Positions 47,436-50,452 of a stretch of DNA of 63,950 nt are shown piece by piece. A program made the position numbers and the translations under genes. Numbering within the stretch: position 1 is the stretch's first letter; each line of letters starts with the position of its first letter. The notes beneath the pieces were generated by a model. The model searched no databases. It was given only the letters and a program-made list of their open reading frames with translations, and was not told the origin of the DNA. The stretch is from the NCBI GenBank assembly GCA_027592135.1, contig JAQCIJ010000002.1, positions 1-63,950 on the forward strand, in the 5' to 3' direction. This stretch comes from a bacterium. GTDB lineage: Bacteria; Patescibacteriota; Gracilibacteria; Peribacterales; Peribacteraceae.

Positions 47436-48528
47436 GTGGAAGAACTACTCAGTAAAATCACAGCACTACAAACTGCCTTGAACACGGGGAAGGACAGTCT
47501 TTGAGGAAAGAGGTATCCCAACACTCATAGCCGAACTTGAAACACAGTCCCAAGATCCTAATCTCTGGGACAATCAATCTTCTGCTAATGCGTTATTTGC
47601 AAAACTGAAAAGCCTCAAAAAACAATGGGAACCTATAAGTACATTACTTTCAGAGATTGATGGATTACTGGAAATGGTAGAAGCATCTACGGCAGAAGAT
47701 CTTCCCGCACTCGAAGAAGAACTTACAGCACTTGAAGAGAAGTGGAATACGGCAGAGATCAATCTGTATCTCAGTGGAGAGTTTGATGTGAACAATGCAT
47801 ATCTCACACTCAGTGGGGGTGCAGGAGGAGTAGACGCACAAGACTGGGCAGCGATGCTACTACGTATGTATCTGCGCTACTGCGAACGCCAAGGATGGAC
47901 AGCTGAGCTTGTCGAAAAGACTGATGGGCAAGAAGCTGGCATTAAATCTGCAACCATTCATATTCAGGGAGAATTCGCCTTTGGCTTTCTACAATGTGAA
48001 CGCGGCACACATCGGCTTGTACGCCTCTCCCCTTTTAACGCAAAAAATTTGCGGCAAACAAGCTTCGCACTTGTAGAGGTATTACCAGAGATTACCGAAA
48101 CCACCGAAATAGAGCTGGAAGAGAAAGATCTGCGTATCGATACTTTTCGCGCTTCGGGGGCTGGAGGACAACATGTAAACAAGACCGATAGCGCAGTACG
48201 TGTAACACACGAGCCAACAGGGCTTGCGGTTGCCTGTCAAAGTGAACGGAGTCAGCAGCAAAATAAAATACGTGCCATGAATATGTTACGTGCCAAGCTC
48301 TTGGCAAAAAAACGAGCAGAAGATGCCGATCAAAAAGATGGCTTAAAAGGAGCAAATAAAAGTGCAGACTTTGGTCAACAGATTCGTTCGTATGTTTTGC
48401 ATCCCTATCAAATGGTAAAAGACCTTCGTACGAATATCGAGACTGGAAATACTGAAGGAGTGCTTGATGGTGATATACAAATGTTTATAGATGCAGAGCT
48501 TAAGCGAGAAGTAAAAAGTAATGAGTAA
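47436..48528 (+). CDS. prfB: Peptide chain release factor 2, requires a programmed +1 frameshift
   Basis: The frame-0 leader from GTG 47436 (VEELLSKITALQTALNTGKDSL) ends at TGA 47502-47504. The +1 frame continues EERGIPTLIAELETQSQDPNLWDN..., joining the listed ORF at 47674, which carries SGAGGQHVNKTDSAVR. Confidence 0.9.
47487..47505 (+). promoter_or_regulatory. RF2 autoregulatory +1 frameshift site (CTT TGA G with an upstream G-rich SD-like stimulator)
   Basis: The sequence is ggggaaggacagtCTTTGAg. This is the same logic as the E. coli site AGGGGGUAUCUUUGAC. Confidence 0.85.
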
Positions 48529-48588
48529 TGATTCAAAAAAGACCCTGCCTTTTACAGCGGGCCCAATTTGATTTCAATTTCAGAAGAC

Positions 48589-48759
48589 CTAGAGGTCCTC
48601 AGAGCGAACAGTCTTACGACCGTTAGCTTTTGCGCGGTCACATGCCTTCTTAACAGAAACCTCAAGATTTGCAGATACTGCATCTGAGAGGTCACCAGAA
48701 GACATCATACCGTGCTTCTTAACGAGCTCTTTGAGCTTAGAAGCTACTACGTAACTCAT
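48589..48759 (-). CDS. 56-aa histone-fold protein (bacterial singlet histone / DUF1931-like), not in the supplied ORF track
   Basis: Manual translation gives MSYVVASKLKELVKKHGMMSSGDLSDAVSANLEVSVKKACDRAKANGRKTVRSEDL. The C-terminal A.ANGRKTVRSEDL mirrors the archaeal histone ARHAGRKTIKAEDI (alpha2-L2-alpha3). Confidence 0.65.
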   Translation of the reverse strand: MSYVVASKLKELVKKHGMMSSGDLSDAVSANLEVSVKKACDRAKANGRKTVRSEDL

Positions 48760-48792
48760 AAATAGGAGTGGTAGGAAGTAATAACGAACCGA

Positions 48793-48822
48793 ATTCTACG
48801 GATAATCCCGTCAAGCCCGCAA
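48793..48822 (-). promoter_or_regulatory. Candidate sigma70-type promoter for the histone-fold gene
   Basis: On the minus strand: TTGCGG (48817-48822), an 18-nt spacer, then TAGAAT (48793-48798), about 35 nt upstream of the ATG. Confidence 0.25.
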
Positions 48823-49278
48823 GTCTAAATTGGCAAATTTGTGCAGTATTTTTGTACGGAAAGCCGATTGACAGAATTGAGTGTTTCGGCAAGGGGTAGA
48901 AAAATACAGTACTCTTAACTAAGGTTTTTTGCTTATGCTTAGCCCAGAACTATGATTTTATAGACGTGGACCTAATGGATGTGGCCTTGGCTCAAATCCC
49001 CCTCTTCTTTGCGGTGCAAATGGCTTGCCTAATGGTCGTTTTTGGGGCAATTCTCTTCTTGGAGGACCAGTTTGGTTGTCTCTGCGAGGTAGTTTTTGCT
49101 CTTTTTTCCTGCCCCACTTCTCATGAGCTTTTTCACGCATACCTCCGTGCAGAGCTACGTGCTTGTCTAGAAATTGATGACAATGAAGAGCTCCGCGAGT
49201 GTGTCTTCGGTGGTGGAAATGGTAATAGTAGGTCCGCACGAGCTGACCTGCCTTTTGCTGATCTGCTACTATAGTGAT

Positions 49279-49683
49279 ATGGAATTCCCCATAGAGATCG
49301 GCCACAAGTTTCAACTGATCGCAAAAGCAATCGCATTTAAGCCAGAAGATGTCGATGAACACTTTGCACGTGGTAGCGGACACGGCGGACAGAGCGTTAA
49401 TAAATCTACAAACTGTGTAGAACTACATCACAATCCAACTGGTATCGATGTGCGCTATCATCACCACAAGGGGTTACTGCGTAACCGTAAAGAAGCATGG
49501 GAACTCATGATCATTAAAGTAGAAGAGCATATCAAAGGTAAAGAGTCTGTAATCAGGCAAAAGCAGCACAAAGTTCAAAAACAAAAACAGAGACGCTCTC
49601 GTAAAGCAAAAGAGAAGATGCTTGAAGAAAAGAAAAAGAGATCAGATATTAAAGAATTCCGTAGAGCAATAGATACCGACTAA
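49279..49683 (+). CDS. arfB: ArfB-like GGQ-domain peptidyl-tRNA hydrolase (RF-1 domain protein)
   Basis: Start chosen at MEFPIE. It has the GGQ motif in GSGHGGQSVNKSTNCVELHH and a long basic C-terminal tail (KQKQRRSRKAKEKMLEEKKKR). Confidence 0.75.
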   Translation: MEFPIEIGHKFQLIAKAIAFKPEDVDEHFARGSGHGGQSVNKSTNCVELHHNPTGIDVRYHHHKGLLRNRKEAWELMIIKVEEHIKGKESVIRQKQHKVQKQKQRRSRKAKEKMLEEKKKRSDIKEFRRAIDTD

Positions 49684-49762
49684 AACTGTAAAATGCTTCA
49701 TGAAGTCAAATACTTTTTACATACAAGAGGAGTATAATACACGCCACCTTCCTCTGCTCTCC

Positions 49763-50452
49763 ATGAAACTCTTTCGATCTATTGTTGCGATTACATCTGT
49801 ATTTGCACTGTGCATCAGTGTCATTCCACCAGCCTATGCCAGTGGCGTAACTGGAGATTCATATCGTAGTAGTTCACCGAGAGGCTTTAAGCGGAGTATT
49901 TCTCGATCACGTGATTTATTAAATACAGAATGTATGCACATAGAAGATGCGAATGCAAAACGTGCATGTATCAAAAAATATCGCAAAACCATTAGAGAAA
50001 AAGCTACGCCAGTACGACAAAACTATGTTGAGCATGATACAAAACAACATGGGCAACGATGTGGTTTTCTTTCTACAGTACAAGAAAGAAGGACATGTAT
50101 GCGCGACGCTCGAGTAAACATTCCCCAGGGAAATCAGCGAGAATTGAACAGGAATACTCGATCGAGAGCAGCGAGAAATCGACGCGATGAGTGCCGTGGA
50201 AAAGAAACAACAACAGAGAGGCTCCAATGTTTACGAGGCTCCAGTAGTACACAAAGAACAATGGTAACAAAGCCTAAACACAGAAACCGCTTAAGAGAGA
50301 ACACTCCAGTAAACTTTATTTCTCCTCAGGGCTTGCGTCGAAACCTCAGTAGGTCTCGCGATCTGATTAAAGAGAAATGTGGTGATATTCTTGATGGTAA
50401 CGACAAAAGAACCTGTATTAAGAATGTCCGAAGCGAGCACCAGGGATACTAA
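49763..50452 (+). CDS. Secreted basic protein with repeated Cys-pair modules
   Basis: Signal peptide MKLFRSIVAITSVFALCISVIPPAYA. The repeated module is RGFKRSISRSRDLLNTECMHIEDANAKRACIK and QGLRRNLSRSRDLIKEKCGDILDGNDKRTCIK, plus two further C...C units. Confidence 0.6.
   Translation: MKLFRSIVAITSVFALCISVIPPAYASGVTGDSYRSSSPRGFKRSISRSRDLLNTECMHIEDANAKRACIKKYRKTIREKATPVRQNYVEHDTKQHGQRCGFLSTVQERRTCMRDARVNIPQGNQRELNRNTRSRAARNRRDECRGKETTTERLQCLRGSSSTQRTMVTKPKHRNRLRENTPVNFISPQGLRRNLSRSRDLIKEKCGDILDGNDKRTCIKNVRSEHQGY

What the first reader, a model, noticed from the sequence alone, without database searches (positions are those of the whole stretch)
48589..48759. Unannotated 56-aa bacterial histone-fold gene
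A minus-strand ORF below the 60-aa cutoff of the supplied track encodes MSYVVASKLKELVKKHGMMSSGDLSDAVSANLEVSVKKACDRAKANGRKTVRSEDL. The helix-loop-long helix-GRKTV-short helix layout, and the match of A.ANGRKTVRSEDL to archaeal HMf-type ARHAGRKTIKAEDI, fit the short singlet bacterial histones (the DUF1931/Bdellovibrio HBb-like class). It stands alone between prfB and a 0.5-kb spacer, with a plausible promoter (TTGCGG, 18 nt, TAGAAT). Histone-fold nucleoid proteins are rare in bacteria and only recently studied.
Basis: partly seen in the sequence, partly recalled or inferred. Interest (0 to 1): 0.7.

Follow-up and report, generated by a model that had tools for sequence, protein, structure and literature searches.

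The report
Peribacteria (CPR) face-to-face-type histone gene
The 56-codon ORF is a real, strongly conserved histone-fold gene of a candidate-phyla-radiation bacterium (Peribacteraceae), most like the tetramer-forming, DNA-wrapping "face-to-face" histones (Leptospira HLp type) rather than the Bdellovibrio dimer type; the family was already listed in a published survey, so this adds a member and is not a discovery.

Summary
ORF 48589..48759(-) encodes exactly the quoted 56-aa protein. It is kept as a 56-codon, indel-free gene in 43 other Peribacteria loci (dN/dS about 0.1-0.2). A family profile hits solved bacterial and archaeal alpha3-truncated histones (HLp 3e-17, HBb 1e-14, HTkC 2e-14). An AlphaFold model (pLDDT 95) superposes on HLp at TM 0.96 / 0.7 A.

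One refinement. The protein carries the invariant R42/N46/R48 residues that build the HLp tetramer interface. HBb-type "bacterial dimers" lack them (RNRTD versus SDRTD). Nearly all HLp DNA-contact residues are also kept. It is therefore best read as a face-to-face (FtF) histone that wraps DNA around a tetramer, not an HBb-like dimer and not DUF1931.

A hairpin/T-run terminator follows the stop codon.

On novelty, Hocher et al. 2023 Table S1 already lists Peribacter and Peregrinibacteria 56-aa histones; one looks about 90% identical by eye (not computed). A complete Ca. Peribacter riflensis genome also encodes HU, so the histone coexists with HU.

Not tested: tetramer formation, DNA binding, expression level.

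Verdict: correct, ordinary for specialists, a new member of a known kind.

The parts
48589..48759 (-). Histone-fold CDS, 56 aa plus stop. Alpha1 is residues 6-15, L1 is 16-23, alpha2 is 24-45, L2 is 46-52, and the truncated alpha3 is 53-55.
   Evidence: ORF; PDB homology; structure; purifying selection.
48817..48822 (-). -35-like hexamer TTGCGG.
   Evidence: Read. TTG[CA]NN with a 16-19 nt spacer (18 nt in 36 loci) before TANAAT is present in 43 of 51 Peribacteria loci at the same place. The pattern is not enriched within the window itself.
48793..48798 (-). -10 hexamer TAGAAT, ending 33 nt before the ATG.
   Evidence: The hexamer is TAGAAT in 31 loci, TAAAAT in 7 and TACAAT in 5. The distance to the ATG is 30-36 nt in 42 of 43 loci.
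48760..48786 (-). Inferred short 5' leader. It is pyrimidine-rich and has no Shine-Dalgarno. The 5' end is inferred, not mapped.
   Evidence: mean pyrimidine fraction 0.80 over the last 30 nt, and an SD-like 4-mer in only 1 of 51 leaders. The genome is SD-poor overall (3 of 57 ORFs).
48865..48872 (-). Conserved upstream box GTCAATCG (family consensus TCAATTG), about 111 nt before the ATG. Function unknown: an operator, or the -35 of a divergent promoter.
   Evidence: exact CAATTG in 41 of 51 loci, variants in 46 of 51, at -106 to -113.
48533..48571 (-). Intrinsic terminator: A-tract, GC hairpin (48564..48540) and T6 (48540..48535). It lies between the convergent histone and prfB genes and is probably bidirectional.
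   Evidence: dG -17.2 kcal/mol, z = -3.6. A hairpin (dG <= -7) plus a T-run of at least 5 within 80 nt of the stop occurs in 43 of 52 loci, with different stem sequences.

Best explanation
The ORF is a monocistronic gene for an alpha3-truncated histone of the face-to-face (FtF) sub-family, in a Peribacteraceae (Peregrinibacteria, candidate phyla radiation) genome. The shown steps are these. It is a real gene under purifying selection. It is homologous to solved histones, and its model is a truncated histone fold. It keeps the RD clamp (R48-D55), the residues that form the dimer-dimer interface in Leptospira HLp (R42, N46, R48 and the C-terminal hydrophobic L56), and the HLp DNA-backbone contact residues (A6-S7-K8, K10, K14, G22, T50). 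It also has its own conserved promoter and terminator. The inferred mechanism, by analogy to HLp, is as follows. Two chains pair head-to-tail through antiparallel alpha2 helices. Two dimers then close into a torus-shaped tetramer through the R42/N46/R48 hydrogen-bond network. About 60 bp of DNA is wrapped, without sequence specificity, around the basic perimeter of the tetramer (pI 9.5, net charge +4 per chain). The protein would then act as an abundant nucleoid-associated protein alongside HU, which a complete Peribacter genome also encodes.
For: Gene reality. Homology: full-length phmmer hits to 8fvx/8cmp (HBb) and 9qt0 (HLp) at E~2e-6 and 9f2c (HTkC) at 7e-5. The family profile gives HLp 3.2e-17, HBb 1.3e-14, HTkC 2.4e-14, then HmvA, M. 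kandleri, HMfA and NF-YB. Fold: pLDDT 95.4, H6-15, H24-45, one-turn alpha3; Foldseek 9qt0_A TM 0.96 / rmsd 0.7 A. FtF assignment: Schwab 2024 states that bacterial dimers lack FtF R48 and N52. Hu 2025 shows R49/S52/N53 contacting F63/T61/R55 in the HLp tetramer, with R49, N53 and R55 conserved in bacterial FtF histones. The window signature is RNRTD, the same as HLp, against SDRTD in HBb. R42, N46, R48, T50 and D55 are 72/72 invariant in the family. Mean identity of Peribacteria singlets is 0.50 to archaeal FtF, 0.46 to bacterial FtF and 0.37 to HBb-type dimers. DNA contacts: HLp A13, S14, K15, K17, K21, G29 and T57 are identical in the window and 90-100% conserved in the family; T27 becomes S and T56 becomes K. 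Natural fused doublets from sister Peribacteria model as a histone pseudodimer (pLDDT 96.8, pTM 0.87) with L1-L2 beta-bridges, each half matching HLp at TM 0.95. This supports the head-to-tail dimer geometry. Own transcription unit. HU coexistence: Ca. Peribacter riflensis gene _1045 is hupB (E 4.6e-34), in the same genome as histone orthologue _828 next to prfB _827.
Against: The FtF call therefore rests on signature residues and similarity ranking. Two of the six HLp interface positions differ (S52 to A45, T61 to E54). HTkC itself has E at the N46 position, so the signature is not absolute. The single sequence is below the Pfam and NCBIfam curated cut-offs. A neighbour-joining tree of these short sequences is unresolved. 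The outgroup set was biased by its search pattern towards RAKANGRKT-containing sequences. No expression, abundance or DNA-binding data exist for any Peribacteria histone. HU presence is shown only for a relative, not for this genome. No HU or IHF gene lies in the 64-kb window, but that says nothing about the rest of the genome.
Confidence: 0.7

Rival explanations
1. It is an HBb-like 'bacterial dimer' histone. It would stay a dimer and bend DNA, or coat it end-on, rather than wrapping it around a tetramer.
For: HBb is a full-length hit of about the same strength as HLp for the single sequence (E~2e-6). Pairwise identity to HBb (43%) is no lower than to HLp (40%). Foldseek TM to HBb chains is 0.86-0.91. 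Like Bdellovibrio, the lineage also encodes HU.
Against: The window protein and all 72 family members carry R42 and N46. The literature gives these as the residues bacterial dimers lack and FtF tetramers use. The profile score is higher for HLp (66 bits) than for HBb (57.7). The structural match is best to HLp (TM 0.96). Mean identity to dimer-class sequences is 0.37, against 0.46-0.50 to FtF.
Confidence: 0.2
2. It has a histone fold but is not a general chromatin protein. It could be a specific regulator, or a protein-protein partner linked to the translation-termination genes it always sits beside (prfB and the small RF-1-domain protein).
For: Linkage to prfB is kept in 45 of the 48 Peribacteria loci examined, even after an inversion. 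A conserved CAATTG box upstream suggests regulated rather than purely constitutive expression. Histone folds such as NF-Y and the TAFs can act as specific factors.
Against: The genes are convergent or separately transcribed, with a terminator between them, so they are not an operon. All DNA-backbone contact residues of HLp are conserved. The protein has no extra domain. Its closest characterised relatives (HLp, HBb, and the L. interrogans histone) are abundant, non-specific DNA binders.
Confidence: 0.08
3. It is a chance ORF or non-coding sequence.
For: It is only 56 codons. It falls below the ORF-track cut-off and below the Pfam thresholds as a single sequence.
Against: dN/dS is about 0.1-0.2 with saturated synonymous sites, and the frame is indel-free in 43 other loci. 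There are about 90 homologous clusters, a pLDDT 95 model and PDB homologues.
Confidence: 0.01

Closest known systems
HLp, the face-to-face (FtF) histone of Leptospira perolatii (PDB 9QT0/9QT1/9QT2; Hu et al. 2025, PMC12701072), and its L. interrogans homologue
   Same: It is the same length class, with a truncated alpha3 and a short alpha2. The model superposes at TM 0.96 / 0.7 A, and HLp is the best profile hit at E 3e-17. The RD clamp and tetramer residues R49/N53/R55 are identical (window R42/N46/R48). DNA contacts A-S-K, K17, K21, G29 and T57 are also identical.
   Different: Identity is only ~40%. S52 becomes A and T61 becomes E at the interface. L2 reads RKT rather than RTT. There is no N-terminal extension. 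Leptospira lacks HU, whereas a Peribacter genome has HU. The genomic context differs: SMC/MAP in Leptospira, prfB here. No experimental data exist for the Peribacteria protein.
Archaeal FtF histones (HTkC of Thermococcus kodakarensis, PDB 9F2C; DPANN homologues)
   Same: These are the highest-identity relatives outside Peribacteria, at up to 57-60% (Micrarchaeota, Woesearchaeota), with the identical ERAKANGRKTVR..DL/F C-terminal half. TM to HTkC is 0.89.
   Different: They belong to a different domain of life. HTkC has E at the N46 position. The relationship (vertical descent or horizontal transfer) is unresolved. The outgroup sample was biased by the search pattern.
HBb / Bd0055, the 'bacterial dimer' histone of Bdellovibrio bacteriovorus (PDB 8FVX, 8CMP, 9EZZ, 9F0E)
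   Same: It is also an alpha3-truncated singlet. It shares the S-K motif in alpha1 and the GRKTV L2 loop, at 43% identity and TM ~0.9. It also coexists with HU.
   Different: HBb has S and D where the window protein has R42 and N46. HBb carries a C-terminal VIDHL extension. HBb is strictly dimeric.
Previously catalogued Peribacter/Peregrinibacteria singlets (Hocher et al. 2023 Table S1: ALM10226.1, UBA1555, UBA6535, PJA68061.1, PIP64944.1)
   Same: This is the same orthologous family. UBA6535 differs from the window protein at only a few positions by eye (about 90% identity, not computed). Ca. Peribacter riflensis gene _828 sits in the same position next to prfB.
   Different: They appear only as table rows. 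They have no sub-family assignment, no discussion and no experiments. The window comes from a different species; its closest genome, L007 Ca. Peribacter sp. SI048_bin16, is ~75-83% identical in DNA and 95% identical in the histone protein.
DUF1931 pseudodimeric histones (Aquifex AQ328, Thermus 1WWI)
   Same: They share the histone-fold superfamily, and there is a weak DUF1931 hit (E 0.15). NCBI labels one homologue 'DUF1931 family protein'.
   Different: DUF1931 proteins are ~140-150-aa doublets that form a separate sequence cluster. The window protein is a singlet. Even the Peribacteria 119-aa doublets hit CBFD_NFYB_HMF and not DUF1931.

Membership tests
Histone fold, alpha3-truncated ('alpha3') histones (Schwab et al. 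2024) | Helix-loop-long helix-loop-helix fold, with alpha3 cut to 3-4 residues and alpha2 shorter than in nucleosomal histones. | tested here: met
   The AF2 model has pLDDT 95.4, with H6-15, H24-45 (22 residues) and a 3-residue alpha3 at 53-55. The top Foldseek hits are all alpha3 histones at TM 0.86-0.96, while nucleosomal histones score 0.56-0.73.
Histone fold, alpha3-truncated ('alpha3') histones (Schwab et al. 2024) | Significant sequence homology to established members. | tested here: met
   The single sequence gives E~2e-6 over its full length to HBb and HLp. The family profile gives 3e-17 to 2e-14.
Histone fold, alpha3-truncated ('alpha3') histones (Schwab et al. 2024) | R-x-T-x4-D motif (RD clamp) in L2/alpha3. 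| tested here: met
   R48, T50 and D55 are invariant in 72/72 sequences.
Pfam CBFD_NFYB_HMF (PF00808) | Score at or above the gathering threshold (21.4 bits). | tested here: not met
   The window protein scores 15.1 bits, E 0.028. 45 of 72 relatives match at E<0.01, the best at 4e-5. This is a sensitivity limit of the model for truncated histones and does not count against homology.
Face-to-face (FtF) histones | Conserved dimer-dimer interface residues: FtF-logo R48 and N52, which are HLp R49 and N53, plus R55. | tested here: met
   R42, N46 and R48 align to them and are 72/72 invariant. The signature is RNRTD, as in HLp.
Face-to-face (FtF) histones | Torus-shaped homotetramer, predicted or observed. 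| not testable with these tools
This needs AF-Multimer or SEC-MALS.
Face-to-face (FtF) histones | Sequence clusters with FtF rather than with other alpha3 categories. | tested here: inconclusive
   Mean identity is 0.50 to archaeal FtF and 0.46 to bacterial FtF, against 0.37 to dimers. HLp is the best profile hit. However, the NJ tree is unresolved, the reference sets are small or biased, and no CLANS analysis was run on the published dataset.
Bacterial dimer histones (HBb type) | Absence of the FtF residues R48 and N52, and strictly dimeric behaviour. | tested here: not met
   Both residues are present and invariant in the window family, whereas HBb has S and D. Oligomeric state could not be tested.
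DUF1931 pseudodimeric histones (PF09123) | Two fused histone folds (~140 aa) and a profile match above 21.8 bits. | tested here: not met
   It is a 56-aa singlet scoring 12.7 bits, E 0.15.
Archaeal nucleosomal histones (HMf type) | Full ~10-residue alpha3, a longer alpha2, and a four-helix-bundle dimer-dimer contact. | tested here: not met
   The protein ends one turn into alpha3. NCBIfam archaea_histone scores 17.4 bits against a cut-off of 50. Only the C-terminal half aligns to HMfA/B.
Nucleoid-associated protein (functional class) | Abundant, sequence-independent DNA binding in vivo. | not testable with these tools
   The evidence is indirect only: conserved HLp DNA-contact residues, pI 9.5, and its own conserved promoter.

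The most novel reading that the evidence does not exclude
In the class Peribacteria the FtF histone is a lineage-wide, prfB-linked core gene that works alongside HU. It shares recent ancestry with the histones of co-occurring DPANN archaea, through horizontal transfer between ultra-small episymbionts. In one sub-clade it has been duplicated and fused into a 119-aa doublet whose first repeat lost the tetramer arginine. That would make a naturally asymmetric FtF particle with only one competent dimer-dimer face, and hence a different chromatin architecture (open or polymerising instead of a closed torus).
Probability: 0.2. Interest if true: 0.55.

Novelty: new member of a known kind. Interest (0 to 1): 0.3.

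Why it matters
Bacterial histones are rare. Hocher et al. 2023 found them in about 2% of genomes, and only two have been characterised (HBb and HLp). This window shows a clean FtF-type histone as a conserved, separately transcribed gene throughout a candidate-phyla-radiation class. These organisms have tiny genomes and tiny cells, where DNA packaging by a histone plus HU would be an unusual combination. For annotation, it is a reminder that ORF cut-offs of 60 aa and Pfam thresholds miss these genes: the 2016 Peribacter genome table labels the orthologue only 'hypothetical protein'. It does not change what is known about histone biology, because the family was already catalogued in 2023 and the proposed mechanism is inferred from HLp.

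Tried and rejected
(1) Rfam and tRNA scans of the window found nothing.

(2) The generic promoter/terminator scanner found nothing at the locus. Its thresholds exclude TTGCGG (3/6 match to TTGACA) and bulged stems. Conservation analysis and folding replaced it.

(3) I built a linker-concatenated 4x alignment to model the tetramer.

(4) The 141-aa minus-strand ORF in the spacer (48958..49383) was rejected as a gene. It has no Pfam hit. Its only matches in relatives lie where it runs antisense to the RF-1-domain gene.

(5) tblastn of HU/IHF against the window and about 760 kb of Peribacteria flanks found nothing. This is uninformative about whole genomes. The published Ca. Peribacter riflensis gene table answered the question for a relative instead.

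(6) The first tree script timed out. The faster NJ with bootstrap ran, but left Peribacteria monophyly and its sister group unresolved, so I make no claim about horizontal transfer.

(7) The promoter pattern is not enriched within the window (3 hits against 3.0 expected), so the match on its own is not evidence.

(8) The missing Shine-Dalgarno is not special to this gene, because the genome is SD-poor overall (3 of 57 ORFs).

(9) Schwab et al. 2024 supplements held no 'Patescibacteria' or 'Peribacter' strings, so their category for these proteins could not be read off.

Full report
OBSERVATION. The minus-strand ORF 48589..48759 exists and translates exactly to the quoted 56-aa protein. It is convergent with prfB (47674..48528 for the post-frameshift part; PCRF + RF-1 domains). 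On its 5' side lies about 0.5 kb (48760..49278) before a divergent 134-aa RF-1-domain (GGQ) gene. After that come an unknown 250-aa ORF, L28, a peptidase M50 gene and a carbamoyltransferase. The window has 44% G+C, no tRNA and no Rfam match.

WHICH ORGANISM. Homologues of the protein carry the source names Candidatus Peribacteraceae, Peribacter and Peregrinibacteria. The closest reference contig is L007 (Ca. Peribacter sp. SI048_bin16). It is about 75-83% identical in DNA across the syntenic region, and 95% identical in the histone protein. The window therefore comes from a Peribacter-like member of the candidate phyla radiation.

IS IT A GENE? A search of 5.8 billion proteins returned 90 clusters, most of them exactly 56 aa, at 45-91% identity in the alignment. 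Seven positions are invariant and 17 more are at least 90% conserved. I compared codons between the window gene and 43 other Peribacteria loci. The frame never shows an indel. dN is 0.04-0.44 while dS runs from 0.19 to saturation, giving dN/dS of 0.05-0.29, mostly 0.1-0.2. This is a protein-coding gene under purifying selection.

IS IT A HISTONE FOLD? As a single sequence it falls below the curated thresholds. CBFD_NFYB_HMF scores 15.1 bits against 21.4, DUF1931 gives E 0.15, and NCBIfam archaea_histone scores 17.4 bits against 50. Against PDB sequences, however, it matches over its full length. It hits Bdellovibrio HBb (8fvx/8cmp) and Leptospira HLp (9qt0) at E~2e-6, and Thermococcus HTkC (9f2c) at 7e-5. 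A profile of 72 family members gives HLp 3.2e-17, HBb 1.3e-14 and HTkC 2.4e-14. Below these come HmvA, the M. kandleri histone, HMfA, Asgard HHoB and NF-YB. 45 of the 72 members individually hit CBFD_NFYB_HMF at E<0.01. AlphaFold2 with this alignment gives pLDDT 95.4. The model has alpha1 at 6-15, alpha2 at 24-45 and a single-turn alpha3 at 53-55. Foldseek against the PDB ranks HLp first (TM 0.96, rmsd 0.7 A), then HBb and HTkC (0.86-0.91), then archaeal and eukaryotic histones (0.56-0.73).

WHICH KIND OF HISTONE? Schwab et al. 2024 (PMC11390915) divide alpha3-truncated histones into face-to-face (FtF) histones and 'bacterial dimers', plus minor classes. FtF histones are defined by a torus-shaped tetramer. 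[quoted passage not shown] Hu et al. 2025 (PMC12701072) solved HLp. Its tetramer is held by R49, S52 and N53 of one chain against F63, T61 and R55 of another, and R49, N53 and R55 are conserved in bacterial FtF histones.

In the alignment, HLp numbering equals window numbering plus 7. The window has R42, A45 and N46 against L56, E54 and R48. The five-position signature (R42, N46, R48, T50, D55) reads RNRTD in the window, in HLp, in all 47 Peribacteria repeats of singlet type, and in all the archaeal and bacterial FtF relatives recovered. HBb reads SDRTD. R42, N46, R48, T50 and D55 are 72/72 invariant. Mean identity of Peribacteria singlets is 0.50 to archaeal FtF, 0.46 to bacterial FtF, 0.37 to dimer-class sequences and 0.25 to HMfB.

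HOW IT PROBABLY WORKS. The HLp-DNA crystal structures show backbone contacts from A13, S14, K15, K17 and K21 (alpha1), T27 and G29 (L1), and T56 and T57 (L2). The window has A6, S7, K8, K10, K14, S20, G22, K49 and T50. Seven of these are identical, one is conservative, and one is a gain of charge. In the family they are 90-100% conserved, except S20. The protein has pI 9.5, with 11 K+R against 7 D+E.

By inference, chains pair head-to-tail and dimers close into a tetramer through R42/N46/R48. About 60 bp of DNA then wraps around the basic rim, as proposed for HLp from MD, MNase and TPM data. Natural 119-aa doublets in sister Peribacteria give independent support for the dimer geometry. They model as a histone pseudodimer (pLDDT 96.8, pTM 0.87) with L1-L2 beta-bridges. 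They match the M. kandleri and Melbournevirus doublets, and each half matches HLp at TM 0.95.

TRANSCRIPTION UNIT. It is no better than chance inside the window, where the pattern gives 3 hits against 3.0 expected, and the generic scanner missed it. Phylogenetic footprinting is what makes it convincing. TTG[CA]NN-N16-19-TANAAT occurs in the last 110 nt of 43 of 51 Peribacteria loci. The spacer is 18 nt in 36 of them, and the -10 ends 30-36 nt before the ATG in 42 of 43, while the flanking sequence has diverged. Three of the eight exceptions (L035, L051, L075) look like doublet loci where I mis-picked the start codon. The other five (L029, L033, L042, L066, L080) show variant -10 hexamers.

The leader is pyrimidine-rich (0.80) and lacks a Shine-Dalgarno, but so do most genes here (3 of 57 ORFs). 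A (G)TCAATTG box sits about 110 nt upstream of the ATG in 41-46 of 51 loci, and its role is unexplained.

After the stop codon there is an A-tract, a GC hairpin and T6 (48571..48533; dG -17.2, z -3.6). A hairpin plus T-run recurs in 43 of 52 loci with different stem sequences. It lies between the convergent histone and prfB genes and looks bidirectional. The gene is thus monocistronic with its own signals. That fits constitutive, possibly high, expression, but expression was not measured.

THE 0.5-KB SPACER. Only the first ~205 nt upstream of the ATG are conserved with L007. The 141-aa ORF in the spacer is not conserved. In relatives the same position holds different insertions: a sigma-70 gene plus a 261-aa gene (L001), DUF2238 (L006), an SQS_PSY-like gene on the other side (L004), and about 2.2 kb extra in L007. 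It is a variable region, not a hidden element.

SYNTENY. The order carbamoyltransferase, DUF5989, peptidase M50, (L28), small RF-1 protein, [variable], histone, then convergent prfB, two unknown genes, IF3, (L35), L20 is kept across the family. prfB lies 60-390 nt downstream and convergent in 33 of the 39 singlet loci. In the doublet clade it lies upstream and co-directional.

HU/IHF. None lies in the window or in about 760 kb of flanks, which says little about the rest of the genome. The published gene table of the complete Ca. Peribacter riflensis genome lists hupB (gene _1045, 92 aa, E 4.6e-34). It also shows the histone orthologue (_828, convergent with prfB _827) labelled only 'hypothetical protein' with a weak rpoF hit. 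So in this lineage the histone coexists with HU, as in Bdellovibrio and unlike Leptospira.

WHAT IS KNOWN. Hocher et al. 2023 (PMC10627809) Table S1 already lists several entries: Ca. Peribacter riflensis ALM10226.1; Peribacter sp. UBA1555 and UBA6535 (the latter differs from the window protein at only a few positions by eye, about 90% identity, not computed); and Peregrinibacteria PJA68061.1 and PIP64944.1. It also lists other CPR entries such as Andersenbacteria. JGI labels many homologues 'histone H3/H4', and NCBI labels one 'DUF1931 family protein'. Neither that paper's main text, nor Schwab 2024 (main text and held supplements), nor the section of Hu 2025 on FtF distribution mentions Patescibacteria or Peribacteria. 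No experiment exists on these proteins.

NOVELTY AND SCORE. This is a correct call and a useful annotation fix, with a sharper sub-family assignment (FtF, HLp-like). It is nevertheless a new member of a known, already catalogued kind. A specialist would not be surprised. The mildly new points are the class-wide conservation with its own promoter and terminator, the coexistence with HU, the closeness to DPANN archaeal FtF sequences (relationship unresolved), and the Peribacteria doublet variant. Interest 0.3.

Noticed in passing
L050:10001-10360; also L052, L054, L066, L080, L057 (cut by contig end), and probably L035, L051, L075: About 9 of the 48 Peribacteria genomes sampled encode a 119-aa doublet of two fused alpha3-truncated histone folds instead of the 56-aa singlet. 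The first repeat has A (once S) in place of the tetramer arginine, and the second repeat keeps it. There are at least 40 protein clusters of 119-125 aa. The doublet passes Pfam CBFD_NFYB_HMF (28.7 bits) and does not hit DUF1931. The AF2 model (pLDDT 96.8) is a pseudodimer resembling the M. kandleri and Melbournevirus doublets.
   Followed up: partly
window 48865-48872 (- strand); same position in 41-46 of 51 related loci: There is a conserved (G)TCAATTG box about 110 nt upstream of the histone ATG, roughly 45 nt upstream of the -35. Its reverse complement reads TTGACA. It could be an operator or the -35 of a divergent promoter, and this is unresolved.
   Followed up: partly
window 47499-47504: prfB carries the classic programmed +1 frameshift site CTT TGA, preceded by a G-rich, SD-like stretch (GGGGAAGG). 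The N-terminal ~25 codons are in another frame, so the listed 284-aa ORF is only the post-shift part (the PCRF match starts at profile position 64).
   Followed up: partly
whole window: The genome is Shine-Dalgarno-poor. Only 3 of 57 ORFs of at least 150 aa have GGAG, GAGG or AGGA at -20..-4 of their first ATG.
   Followed up: no
window 48910-49278, compared with L001, L004, L006, L007: The region upstream of the histone promoter is an insertion hot spot. Different relatives carry a sigma-70 gene plus a 261-aa gene, DUF2238, or about 2.2 kb of extra DNA there. The window has none, and its 141-aa ORF (48958..49383, - strand) is not conserved.
   Followed up: partly
window 49279-49683 (+): There is a small 134-aa RF-1-domain (GGQ) protein that looks ArfB/ICT1-like. 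It is a conserved neighbour of the histone/prfB pair across Peribacteria.
   Followed up: no
window 49700-50452 (+): A 250-aa ORF has an N-terminal hydrophobic segment and repeated basic Cys-containing motifs (KRACIKKYRK, RRTCMRDARV, RLQCLRG, KRTCIKNVR). It has no Pfam match.
   Followed up: no
L018 (NYYK01000002.1, 'Methanobacteriota archaeon ARS80'): This contig is labelled archaeal, yet it carries a histone identical to Ca. Peribacter sp. UBA2144 (L017), with bacterial prfB 173 nt downstream. It is most likely a mis-binned Peribacteria contig.
   Followed up: partly
Ca. Peribacter riflensis gene table (PMC4736985, supplementary file 2): The histone orthologue (_828) is annotated 'hypothetical protein' with a spurious weak KEGG hit to archaeal rpoF (K03051, E 4.5e-4). 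The same genome has hupB (_1045) next to topA.
   Followed up: yes
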